The notes under the pieces are model-generated. The model was not told where the DNA came from. It saw only the letters and a program-made list of their open reading frames with translations, and did no database searches. A stretch of 13,905 nt of DNA from a virus. Its lineage: Duplodnaviria; Heunggongvirae; Uroviricota; Caudoviricetes. The stretch lies in the IMG/VR virus record IMGVR_UViG_2534682164_000017; one strand, given 5' to 3'. A program made the translations under genes and the position numbers. This document shows, in pieces, positions 12,843 through 13,522 of this stretch (its first letter is position 1; each line of letters begins with the position of its first letter).

Positions 12843-13456
12843 GCGAGATTTGAGACGAAGGTTGTTATTTGCACTGACACAATATTGTGTGGGAATGTCT
12901 GACTCCTTACCATCTCCTGTTCTGTGATGTTGTTTTGTTGCAGTTCCAGTGCTCTTTTTTCAGCACCAGAATGGTGCATTGTCGGTCAGGTTACGTAGTG
13001 AACCTCTGGCAGGGGACTGATGATTCATCATTCTGGTGTTGTAAATATCTCTTCGGACAACTTACAAAATATTCTAAGCAAACCCCGGGAACACACTCTT
13101 AACTGCCTTGGCTGGCGGTTTTTTGTACAGCGCTCGGTATGTGTGAGCTGGAAATCAGATTTTGCATGGACTGGAATCATGCTGTTATTTAGGGGCGAAG
13201 AACTGGCTTTTTCTTCCGCCTTCTCACCAGTAACGATTAGAAAAATAATGAAATGCCCCCCTCCGGGGAGGAGGACCGTAGAAAAAAGGACCCGCCAGCA
13301 AAAACATTGGGGATGAACAGCTTTCGCTACTCAGATTGCTGGCGGGTAAAGTTCCTCATGAATTAAGAATGCTACGCGATTCTTTTTAATGGAAATGAAA
13401 ATTATTGTCAATTAGTCGTGCGTGTTTTTTCATACAATATTGGTAAAGGTGATTCA

Positions 13457-13487
13457 GGCCATCAGAGTTTTGCTGATGGCCTTTTTT
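13457..13487 (+). terminator. Strong intrinsic terminator directly upstream of the holin gene
   Basis: Perfect 9-bp stem GGCCATCAG / CTGATGGCC with loop AGTTTTG, followed by TTTTTT. Confidence 0.65.
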
Positions 13488-13522
13488 CTTTCCGATAGCA
13501 CAGGTCTGTCGGGGGGCGGGAT

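What the first reader, a model, noticed from the sequence alone, without database searches (positions are those of the whole stretch)
12843..13522. ORF-poor 680-bp segment at the cargo (toxin) position of the late operon, closed by a strong terminator immediately before the holin
In Stx phages this interval between the tRNAs and S holds the toxin genes; in other lambdoid prophages it holds assorted cargo. Here it has no credible ORF: the three track ORFs lack plausible ribosome-binding sites and overlap each other. It does contain structured elements, most clearly a perfect 9-bp stem plus T6 terminator at 13457-13487, about 35 bp upstream of the S start. A terminator there would block late read-through into the lysis genes unless Q-modified polymerase overrides it. 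The segment may be a decayed cargo site, or it may encode a small RNA ending at that terminator.
Basis: partly seen in the sequence, partly recalled or inferred. Interest (0 to 1): 0.5.

Follow-up and report, generated by a model that had tools for sequence, protein, structure and literature searches.

The report
Non-coding RNA and terminator spacer before holin
The 680 bases between the prophage's tRNA genes and its lysis genes hold no gene for a protein, but a conserved structured tRNA trailer, a likely small regulatory RNA gene on the opposite strand, and a transcription stop signal just before the holin; all three are known kinds of element, so the finding is real but fairly ordinary.

Summary
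Window 12843-13522 has no conserved or family-assignable ORF. A 9-bp stem with a T6 run sits at 13457-13487, 35 nt before the P21-type holin S.

The segment is not decayed cargo. It resolves into three non-coding elements.

1. 12843-13126 (+) is the 3' trailer of the phage tRNA operon. It has a 29-bp hairpin and its own terminator. About 230 E. coli genomes carry it at roughly 70% identity, with wobble and compensatory changes.
2. 13282-13411 (-) looks like a small-RNA gene: TTGACA-17-TAAAAA, an RNA of about 96 nt, and a 12-bp stem plus U6. It is convergent with the trailer. It sits in the same position and orientation, with the same promoter box, as EcOnc32, an Hfq-bound sRNA of about 112 nt that was validated in EHEC Sakai and is also seen in EPEC RIL-seq.
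3. 13456-13491 (+) is the pre-holin terminator. A terminator at this position occurs in 16 of 53 distinct S21-holin loci, where about 1 is expected by chance. The stems differ in sequence.

Elements 2 and 3 lie in a 350-bp module found in about 1,430 of 5,426 complete E. coli genomes, including ColV plasmids next to iss.

The insulation and Q read-through idea is plausible but inferred.

Verdict: new members of known kinds, modest interest.

The parts
12843..13126 (+). 3' trailer of the phage tRNA operon (tRNAs at 12532-12842): a conserved structured non-coding RNA that ends at its own terminator.
   Evidence: It always follows tRNA-Thr/tRNA-Gly(TCC) in other prophages. 233 E. coli genomes match at about 68-76% identity, and 77 of them cover at least 80% of its length. 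The alignment and RNAalifold give 69 pairs, 7 of them with compensatory changes. The ORFs are not conserved.
12957..13045 (+). Long hairpin (about 29-bp lower stem plus an apical stem) inside the trailer. It is flanked by the helix GCACUG (12871-12876) / CAGUGC (12947-12952).
   Evidence: dG is -40.4 kcal/mol. Across 5 loci, 95.4% of cells are paired. In the 28-bp helix, 11 pairs vary on one side only, through G.U, and 3 pairs have double changes. Slid controls pair at 35-60%. G.U pairs form only on the + strand RNA.
13101..13124 (+). T1, the intrinsic terminator of the tRNA operon and trailer: AACUGCC-loop-GGCGGUU followed by U6.
   Evidence: dG -10.0. The stem ACCGCC/GGCGGU plus T8 is conserved in ETEC1747, TUM1881, 09-00049 and OkiPb, with differing loops and a C-to-U wobble in the window.
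13142..13491 (.). Conserved 350-bp non-coding module that precedes class II holins. It contains the two elements listed next.
   Evidence: It is 85-87% identical in 1,509 records from 1,428 of 5,426 complete E. coli genomes. 639 places are on plasmids (the ColV/ColBM iss locus). It also occurs in UPEC islands where the lysis genes are deleted, and there the match stops at the end of the terminator T-run. Conservation peaks at 13280-13350 and 13420-13470.
13282..13411 (-). Candidate small-RNA gene on the minus strand. -35 TTGACA at 13411-13406, 17-nt spacer, -10 TAAAAA at 13388-13383, start near 13377. The terminator has a 12-bp stem (13347-13336 with 13301-13290) followed by U6 (13287-13282). 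The predicted RNA is about 96 nt.
   Evidence: The minus strand of the module folds with z = -4.2, against -1.1 for the plus strand. The terminator stem is unchanged between the window and AR_0086 and has a single substitution in the ColBM plasmid copy; its 34-nt loop carries a few substitutions; this stretch is the best-conserved part of the module. It has the same position (3' end 233 vs 219 nt before S), the same orientation and the same TTGACAATAAT box as EcOnc32 / the 'E2348C_1013' RNA.
13255..13277 (-). Second hairpin directly downstream of the minus-strand terminator (GGUCCUCCUCCCCGGAGGGGGGC, then a U-rich tail). It could be a back-up terminator.
   Evidence: This is analogous to the major and minor 3' ends of PasA. 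Its function is inferred.
13456..13491 (+). T4, the pre-holin (moron-slot) intrinsic terminator: a 9-10-bp stem, a 7-nt loop and U6CUUU. It lies 35 nt upstream of S.
   Evidence: Homologous hairpins in 8 contexts are 95.8% paired, with GC-to-AU and AU-to-GC double changes and four U.G wobbles that work only on the + strand. A + terminator ending 30-65 nt before S occurs in 16 of 53 distinct loci, against 0.98 expected.
13523..13738 (+). P21-type class II holin S (71 aa, Met1/Met4 dual start). It is followed by the lysozyme gene from 13738. This is context for the finding.
   Evidence: PF04971 at 1.5e-35 and Phage_lysozyme.

Best explanation
The 680-bp gap is a non-coding regulatory spacer in the moron slot of the late operon. 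It is built from three transcription elements.

(1) The phage tRNA operon does not stop at tRNA-Gly. It continues into a conserved structured trailer of about 280 nt, with an outer helix and a 29-bp hairpin, and ends at the intrinsic terminator T1 (13101-13124).

(2) A small-RNA gene on the minus strand is transcribed towards the trailer. It starts near 13377 from a TTGACA-17-TAAAAA promoter and stops at a 12-bp-stem/U6 terminator (3' end near 13282). The product is an Hfq-type sRNA of about 96 nt. It is the local counterpart of EcOnc32, the minus-strand partner of the convergent sRNA pairs that lambdoid prophages carry 3' of pR'. It would act in trans on host or phage mRNAs. After induction it would also be antisense to the late transcript.

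(3) The terminator T4 (13456-13491) closes the slot 35 nt before S. In the lysogen it stops whatever + strand transcription escapes T1 or starts inside the slot, which keeps holin and endolysin silent. After induction, Q-modified polymerase from pR' (just downstream of Q, about 11300) reads through T1 and T4 into S.

Shown here: the absence of coding signal; the structures and their conservation and covariation; the positional recurrence of the pre-holin terminator; and the published expression and Hfq binding of the counterpart RNA in EHEC and EPEC. Inferred: expression of the minus-strand RNA from this particular variant, its targets, and termination and read-through at T1 and T4.
For: Non-coding status: no Pfam or PHROG hits and ORFs not conserved.

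Trailer: it is linked to tRNA-Thr/Gly in many prophages with different downstream genes. The structure is supported by wobble and compensatory changes. T1 is conserved with variable loops.

Minus-strand unit: it has a perfect -35, a 12-bp stem and U6. Its stem and loop are the best-conserved stretch of the module. Promoter and terminator are retained in the ColV-plasmid and UPEC-island remnants that have lost S, R and most of Rz.

Counterpart RNA: Sakai Sp3 and E2348/69 PP4 carry an identical unit with the same TTGACAATAAT box, 219 nt before S. It is EcOnc32: Hfq-CRAC site at 901574-901662 on the minus strand, about 112 nt on northern blot (PMC4104026 Table S2). In EPEC it has base mean 2064, is 7.5-fold lower in delta-hfq (padj 1e-23), has 8 RIL-seq partners, is always RNA2, and has a U-tract of 6 (PMC8550237 Tables S2, S3, S5). 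The whole-unit alignment of window against EcOnc32 gives z = 5.5, with 0 of 500 shuffles reaching it.

Convergent sRNA pairs in the moron site are described in PMC4104026. sRNA genes adjacent to the holin/lysozyme operon are described in the 2026 Pas preprint.

T4. The same element follows stxB1d in RM8082.
Against: There are no expression data for this variant. The -10 (TAAAAA) lacks the usual final T, so the consensus scan did not call the promoter. Outside the promoter and U-run, similarity to EcOnc32 is weak (body alone z = 2.6, 8 of 500 shuffles), so the relation may be one of position rather than family. The module variants are only 10-15% apart, so the minus-strand hairpin shows no compensatory change. 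The one change seen in it (ColBM plasmid) gives G.U on the + strand but A.C on the minus strand. Conservation of the module may partly reflect recent common descent. Whether T4 is needed once T1 is present is not known.
Confidence: 0.6

Rival explanations
1. One reading: a short + strand RNA (about 45-50 nt, or a processed 3' fragment of a longer + transcript) whose seed is GGUAAAGGUGAUUCA and whose terminator is T4. It would resemble the unusually short anti-sRNAs AgvB and AsxR.
For: The 45 nt before the terminator are invariant in four independent contexts, including a Stx1d phage where the upstream sequence differs. TACAAT lies at 13433-13438. Sp3/PP4 has TTGTCA-15-TATTAT before the homologous hairpin. 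The region gives weak sRNA-like Rfam matches to MicA, Qrr and isrD, with E of 3-8. In RM8082 the Rfam STnc100 match runs right up to this element, so a + strand sRNA may end at T4 there.
Against: The -35-like hexamer is 22 nt from the -10. The -10 reads TACATG in the AR_0086, plasmid, UPEC-island and Stx1d variants. The promoter scan found nothing here. No AgvB, AsxR or STnc100 match appears in the window even at E = 10. No IGR entry for the equivalent spot was found in the EPEC RIL-seq tables as stored, though those files were truncated. The invariance may simply mark a mosaic boundary that travels with the holin.
Confidence: 0.17
2. The segment is a decayed cargo site: remnants of a toxin or other moron gene that is drifting without function. 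The hairpins would be leftovers.
For: The position is the cargo slot. stx1d and LT-IIb prophages carry related flanking pieces. The whole region is mosaic, and the full 680 bp occurs in only 9 complete genomes.
Against: No ORF hits any protein family. There is no DNA similarity to phage genes. Both halves are conserved as non-coding units in hundreds to more than a thousand genomes. Substitutions preserve RNA pairing but do not preserve reading frames.
Confidence: 0.05
3. The interval encodes a small protein. Candidates are the 63-aa 'hypothetical protein' that PGAP calls just before the holin in some genomes, or the 98-aa ORF at 13020-13316.
For: PGAP annotates WP_000502162.1 in AR_0086 and other genomes. 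The 98-aa ORF has an AGGGGA before its ATG.
Against: The 63-aa frame runs through the terminator hairpin. In the window it loses its ATG and is frameshifted to TAA. The 98-aa ORF starts inside the conserved hairpin, crosses the module boundary, and has no counterpart in homologous trailers. No family matches were found.
Confidence: 0.03

Closest known systems
EcOnc32 (EHEC Sakai Sp3; Tree et al. 2014, PMC4104026). The same RNA appears under the name 'E2348C_1013' in EPEC RIL-seq (PMC8550237).
   Same: It is a minus-strand unit between the cargo slot and a class II holin, convergent with a + strand RNA. The -35 context TTGACAATAAT is identical. The terminator has a GCCAGC-type stem plus U6. The 3' end lies 219 nt before S, against 233 nt in the window. 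It is followed by a homologous pre-holin terminator.
   Different: The RNA body is largely different (body alignment z = 2.6). The terminator loop is 34 nt against 18 nt. The predicted length is about 96 nt against about 112 nt. The + strand partner is the tRNA trailer here, but PasD/EcOnc13 there. Expression and Hfq binding are shown for EcOnc32 only.
Convergent sRNA pairs and anti-sRNAs (AgvB, AsxR) in the moron site 3' of pR' (PMC4104026).
   Same: The genomic slot and the convergent architecture are the same, and both have terminator-rich 3' modules.
   Different: No Rfam AgvB (RF02702) or AsxR (RF02703) match was found, even at E = 10. Those RNAs are 51-60 nt. No sponge target has been identified here.
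PasA/PasC (EcOnc51/52), PasD/STnc100 and PapR: sRNAs of lambdoid prophages next to the holin operon (PMC8550237; bioRxiv 10.64898/2026.05.13.724894; PMC4546395).
   Same: PasA and PasC lie on the minus strand 280-290 nt before S and have AGCCAGC-stem terminators. A PapR-like 3' end and STnc100 lie immediately left of the same module in AR_0086.
   Different: BLAST gives only 9-15-nt chance-level matches between Pas sRNAs and the window. The PapR primer and probe sequences are absent. There is no STnc100 match in the window.
Moron architecture (own promoter plus factor-independent terminator; Juhala et al. 2000) and Q-dependent read-through of terminators such as lambda tR' (established knowledge).
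   Same: A strong intrinsic terminator closes the insertion slot just before the next late gene. Q (PF06530) lies upstream.
   Different: T4 is not tR'. It lies about 2.2 kb downstream of Q, after several other terminators. Here it closes a slot that holds RNA genes rather than a protein-coding moron.
tRNA-operon external transcribed spacers that act as RNAs in their own right, such as the 3'ETS of glyW-cysT-leuZ (own knowledge).
   Same: It is a conserved non-tRNA RNA segment after the last tRNA that ends at the operon terminator.
   Different: It is much longer (about 280 nt) and dominated by a 29-bp hairpin. No evidence of Hfq binding or sponge activity exists. This is a resemblance only.

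Membership tests
Intrinsic (Rho-independent) terminator: T4 at 13456-13491 and T1 at 13101-13124 | A G+C-rich stem, a short loop and an immediately following U-run on the transcribed strand. | tested here: met
   T4 has a 9-10-bp stem with 6 GC pairs, a 7-nt loop and T6, dG -17.3. T1 has a 7-bp stem, a 6-nt loop and T6, dG -10.0. The U-run is on the + strand only.
Intrinsic (Rho-independent) terminator: T4 at 13456-13491 and T1 at 13101-13124 | The structure, rather than the sequence, is maintained among relatives. | tested here: met
   T4: 95.8% of cells paired, two pairs with double changes, and U.G wobbles. Unrelated stems occur at the same distance from S in 16 of 53 loci, against about 1 expected. 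T1: the stem is kept while the loops vary.
Intrinsic (Rho-independent) terminator: T4 at 13456-13491 and T1 at 13101-13124 | Transcripts end there in vivo, and Q-modified polymerase reads through. | not testable with these tools
   This needs Term-seq or reporter assays with and without Q.
Hfq-dependent trans-acting sRNA gene (minus-strand unit, 13411->13282) | Its own promoter. | tested here: inconclusive
   The -35 is a perfect TTGACA with a 17-nt spacer. The -10 is TAAAAA (4 of 6, no final T). All of this is kept in four variants, but the consensus scan does not call it.
Hfq-dependent trans-acting sRNA gene (minus-strand unit, 13411->13282) | A terminator hairpin with a 3' U-tract of at least 4-6, preceded by a single-stranded stretch. 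| tested here: met
   A 12-bp stem, U6, and about 30 nt unpaired or weakly paired at the 5' side.
Hfq-dependent trans-acting sRNA gene (minus-strand unit, 13411->13282) | A stable transcript that depends on Hfq and binds it. | not testable with these tools
   This is shown only for the positional counterpart EcOnc32/'E2348C_1013'.
EcOnc32 family | Same locus, strand and flanking elements. | tested here: met
EcOnc32 family | Detectable sequence homology of the RNA itself. | tested here: inconclusive
   Whole unit z = 5.5, but this is carried by the promoter box and the U-run. The body alone gives z = 2.6, with 8 of 500 shuffles as good.
PasA/PasB/PasC/PasD sRNAs | Sequence similarity to the E2348/69 genes. 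| tested here: not met
   blastn-short gives only 9-15-nt matches with E of at least 0.05, none of them colinear.
AgvB / AsxR / STnc100 (Rfam RF02702, RF02703, RF02076) | A covariance-model match. | tested here: not met
   No match at gathering score or at E up to 10 in 12700-13650. STnc100 is found in the neighbouring loci L002, L006 and L312, so the search works.
Protein-coding cargo (moron gene or its remnant) | An ORF conserved across homologous DNA, or similarity to a protein family. | tested here: not met

The most novel reading that the evidence does not exclude
Both RNAs are functional regulators that nobody has described. In this reading, the 280-nt tRNA-operon trailer with its 29-bp hairpin is either a processed stable RNA (for example an RNase III-released sponge or decoy) or a cis element that times processing of the late transcript ahead of the lysis genes. 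The minus-strand sRNA of about 96 nt, present in about a quarter of complete E. coli genomes and kept beside iss on ColV/ColBM virulence plasmids after the lysis genes were lost, would regulate host genes relevant to extra-intestinal virulence.
Probability: 0.2. Interest if true: 0.55.

Novelty: new member of a known kind. Interest (0 to 1): 0.33.

Why it matters
The result shows that an apparently empty cargo slot in a lambdoid late operon is organised non-coding sequence and not junk. It gives coordinates for two undescribed conserved RNAs that could be tested. One is a tRNA-operon trailer RNA. The other is an EcOnc32-position sRNA variant that is widespread, including on ColV plasmids. It also documents that a terminator 30-65 nt before P21-type holins is a recurrent design feature. 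That bears on how prophages keep lysis genes silent while expressing tRNAs, toxins and sRNAs from the same slot. Finally, it flags likely false gene calls (WP_000502162.1; ECs_0817/E2348C_1013). None of this overturns current understanding.

Tried and rejected
- Megablast and blastn of the 680 bp against 50,697 phage records gave only short, weak matches and no cargo gene.
- Rfam at gathering score and at E up to 10 found no family inside the segment. The miRNA-like hits only reflect the long hairpin.
- Identity with PasA-D was rejected by BLAST against sequences cut from E2348/69 at the published coordinates.
- Identity with PapR was rejected. There is no complementarity of at least 8 nt between 13380-13500 and papI, and the primer and probe sequences are absent. 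A PapR-like 3' end lies next to the module in AR_0086 but not in the window.
- K-12 DLP12 and UTI89 at the argU site lack the module.
- A + strand promoter predicted at 13221-13249 was rejected, because indels change its spacer to 20 nt or delete it in the other variants.
- Two 14-mer scans of IMG/VR returned mostly chance matches and added no new sequence variants.
- A full-text search for the hairpin sequences in papers found nothing.
- A covariance model of PasA/PasC was not built, because too few distinct sequences were in hand.
- The paper on sRNAs in OMVs of hlyF-plasmid strains had nothing on this locus.

Full report
CONTEXT AND OBSERVATION

The window carries a lambdoid late region. 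RusA is at 10553-10924 and antiterminator Q (PF06530) at 10893-11300. Rfam hits to c4-a1b1, isrK, C4 and sRNA-Xcc1 follow at 11328-11743. An ORF6N antirepressor-like ORF ends at 12344. Four tRNAs (CAU, Arg-UCU, Thr-UGU, Gly-UCC) occupy 12532-12842. Next comes the 680-bp segment, then a P21-type holin S (13523-13738, PF04971) and a lysozyme gene starting at 13738.

The terminator is exactly as reported. GGCCATCAG (13457-13465) pairs with CTGATGGCC (13473-13481) across a 7-nt loop. T6 lies at 13482-13487, 35 nt before the ATG, and dG is -17.3 kcal/mol. Terminator-like sites are over-represented in 12300-13905: 7 against 1.6 +/- 1.5 in shuffles.

Several ORFs of 37-98 aa exist. None matches Pfam or PHROGs. 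None is conserved in homologous DNA.

THE SEGMENT HAS TWO PARTS WITH DIFFERENT HISTORIES

The full 680 bp occurs at 98.8% identity or more in only 9 complete E. coli genomes, always unannotated, between the same tRNAs and a class II holin.

The right part (13142-13522) is 85-87% identical in 1,509 records from 1,428 of 5,426 genomes. Of the matching places, 639 are on plasmids. There, and in UPEC islands near pap, it survives next to Rz fragments and iss although S and R are gone. In those cases the match stops at the end of the terminator's T-run. An 88-117-bp piece that includes the terminator lies between stxB1d and the holin in strain RM8082.

The left part (12843-13141) has relatives of about 70% identity in 233 genomes. 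They always follow tRNA-Thr/tRNA-Gly, whatever lies downstream: other holin types, TerB, or LT-IIb prophage genes.

LEFT PART: A STRUCTURED tRNA-OPERON TRAILER

Alignments of the trailer show three features:
- a helix GCACUG/CAGUGC (12871-12876 with 12947-12952);
- a long hairpin (12957-13045, dG -40.4);
- a terminator T1 (13101-13124).

T1 corresponds to ACCGCC-loop-GGCGGU plus T8 in relatives, and the loops differ between them.

For the long hairpin, 95.4% of cells pair across five loci. In the 28-bp helix, 11 pairs change on one side only, through G.U, and three pairs change on both sides. Sliding the partner columns drops pairing to 35-60%. G.U pairs would be C.A on the other strand, so the selected structure is the + strand RNA.

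I infer that the tRNA operon is transcribed through this trailer and ends at T1. A promoter-like site lies at 12493-12522. What the trailer does is unknown. An RNase III processing site or a stable spacer-derived RNA are both possibilities.

RIGHT PART, MINUS STRAND: A LIKELY sRNA GENE

The minus strand of the module folds far better than shuffles (z = -4.2). The plus strand gives z = -1.1.

The minus strand reads as follows:
- TTGACA at 13411-13406, then a 17-nt spacer;
- TAAAAA at 13388-13383;
- a 5' region of about 30 nt;
- a 12-bp stem ACCCGCCAGCAA/UUGCUGGCGGGU (13347-13336 with 13301-13290) enclosing a 34-nt loop;
- CC, then U6 at 13287-13282.

This hairpin, including its loop, is the most conserved stretch of the module. 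The promoter hexamers are kept in all four variants.

A homologous arrangement exists in E2348/69 prophage PP4 and, with identical sequence, in Sakai Sp3. It has TTGACAATAAT, a unit of about 100-110 nt, and a GCCAGCGCAGA-stem terminator plus U6 ending 219 nt before S, against 233 nt here.

That unit is EcOnc32. Its Hfq-CRAC site is at Sakai 901574-901662 on the minus strand. The northern probe is complementary to the minus-strand RNA, and the size is about 112 nt (PMC4104026 supplement).

In EPEC it is hidden under the CDS name E2348C_1013. The published data are:
- base mean 2064;
- log2 fold change -2.9 in delta-hfq, padj 1.4e-23;
- 8 RIL-seq partners;
- 900 and 304 chimeric fragments;
- fraction as RNA2 equal to 1 in both conditions;
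- U-tract of 6;
- chimera coordinates that fall on the 3' half of the terminator (PMC8550237 Tables S2, S3, S5).

The window unit aligns with EcOnc32 at z = 5.5 overall, but at only z = 2.6 for the RNA body. I therefore treat it as the positional counterpart and a possible divergent relative, not as a proven family member.

Tree et al. describe this architecture: convergent sRNA pairs between the moron and the next phage ORF, 3' of pR'. In the window, the + strand partner is the tRNA trailer ending at T1.

RIGHT PART, PLUS STRAND: THE PRE-HOLIN TERMINATOR

I examined 53 distinct upstream regions of P21-type holins from one genome per species. In 16 of them a + strand terminator has its stem ending 30-65 nt before the ATG, where 0.98 is expected from the overall terminator density. 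Another 12 have one at 100-125 nt. The stems are mostly unrelated in sequence.

The subset that is homologous to T4 shows GC-to-AU and AU-to-GC double changes and four U.G wobbles, with 95.8% of cells paired.

In several loci the terminator directly follows the stop codon of an upstream methylase gene. That matches the textbook moron design of a promoter plus a factor-independent terminator (Juhala et al. 2000, as cited in PMC4104026).

I infer that T4 closes the slot and insulates S and R from constitutive transcription in the lysogen, and that Q-modified polymerase overrides it.

TACAAT (13433-13438) is a good -10. However, the only -35-like hexamer (TTGTCA, 13405-13410) lies 22 nt away. The -10 reads TACATG in all other variants, and the promoter scan finds nothing here.

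The invariant stretch before the hairpin may instead be the mosaic boundary that travels with the holin. In RM8082 the Rfam STnc100 match abuts it. A processed + strand RNA ending at T4 therefore cannot be excluded, and I give this rival about 0.17.

WHAT IT IS NOT

- It is not PasA-D.
- It is not PapR.
- It is not AgvB, AsxR or STnc100.
- It is not a decayed toxin or other gene.
- It does not encode the 63-aa protein that PGAP calls in some genomes. That frame crosses the terminator and is broken here.

VERDICT

Each element belongs to a known kind: an operon terminator with its trailer, a prophage Hfq-type sRNA in the convergent-pair position, and a moron-slot terminator.

The specific trailer RNA and this sRNA variant appear undescribed. 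I found no Rfam family and no literature hit by sequence. They are widespread, which gives the finding modest interest.

Confidence is about 0.6 in the three-element model. It is higher, about 0.8, for the claims that the segment is non-coding and that T1 and T4 are real terminators. It is lower, about 0.5, for the claim that the minus-strand RNA is expressed from this variant.

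Noticed in passing
window 526-1293, 1302-2068 (direct) and 2499-3266 (inverted): Three copies of a 768-bp element, 99-100% identical to one another, encode an IS1 transposase (DDE_Tnp_IS1). Two are in tandem and one is inverted. They bracket a tRNA-Met at 2113-2188.
   Followed up: partly
window 11328-12344: Rfam finds c4-a1b1, isrK, C4 antisense RNA and sRNA-Xcc1 directly after Q, followed by an ORF6N antirepressor-like ORF. 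This looks like a P1 immI-like / Gifsy isrK-type antisense-controlled antirepressor module sitting inside the late operon. isrK may be the pR' leader RNA.
   Followed up: no
window 12420-12446 and 12493-12522: An intrinsic-terminator-like hairpin (AAACCCGCC...GGCGGGTTTTTT) follows the antirepressor-like ORF. A promoter-like site (TTTGCA-18-TATTAT) lies just before the tRNA cluster. This suggests the tRNAs form their own transcription unit.
   Followed up: no
L002 (E. coli AR_0086) 4166-4357; also NC_002695.2 901266-901664 (ECs_0817) and NC_011601.1 1060300-1060698 (E2348C_1013): These annotated 'hypothetical protein' genes are probably false calls. The first runs through the pre-holin terminator. 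The other two contain the EcOnc32 sRNA and its terminator.
   Followed up: partly
L002 3698-3905: In AR_0086, STnc100 (+, 114 bits) is convergent with a minus-strand unit whose 3' end matches PapR (CUUCACGUUUUAUU...CCCAGCGCGGGCUUUUUU) but whose 5' part differs from UTI89 PapR. This is another case of a conserved 3' module joined to a variable 5' end.
   Followed up: partly
L169 and L182 (IMG/VR contigs): These prophage contigs carry the 680-bp segment, or most of it, twice within a few kb, which suggests local duplication of the tRNA/spacer/holin region.
   Followed up: no
window 13523-13534: The holin starts MYQMEK. It has the Met1/Met4 dual-start spacing of S21 but lacks the Lys at position 2 of phage 21's S21-71 (the phage 21 sequence is from my own recollection). 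The antiholin/holin balance may therefore differ.
   Followed up: no
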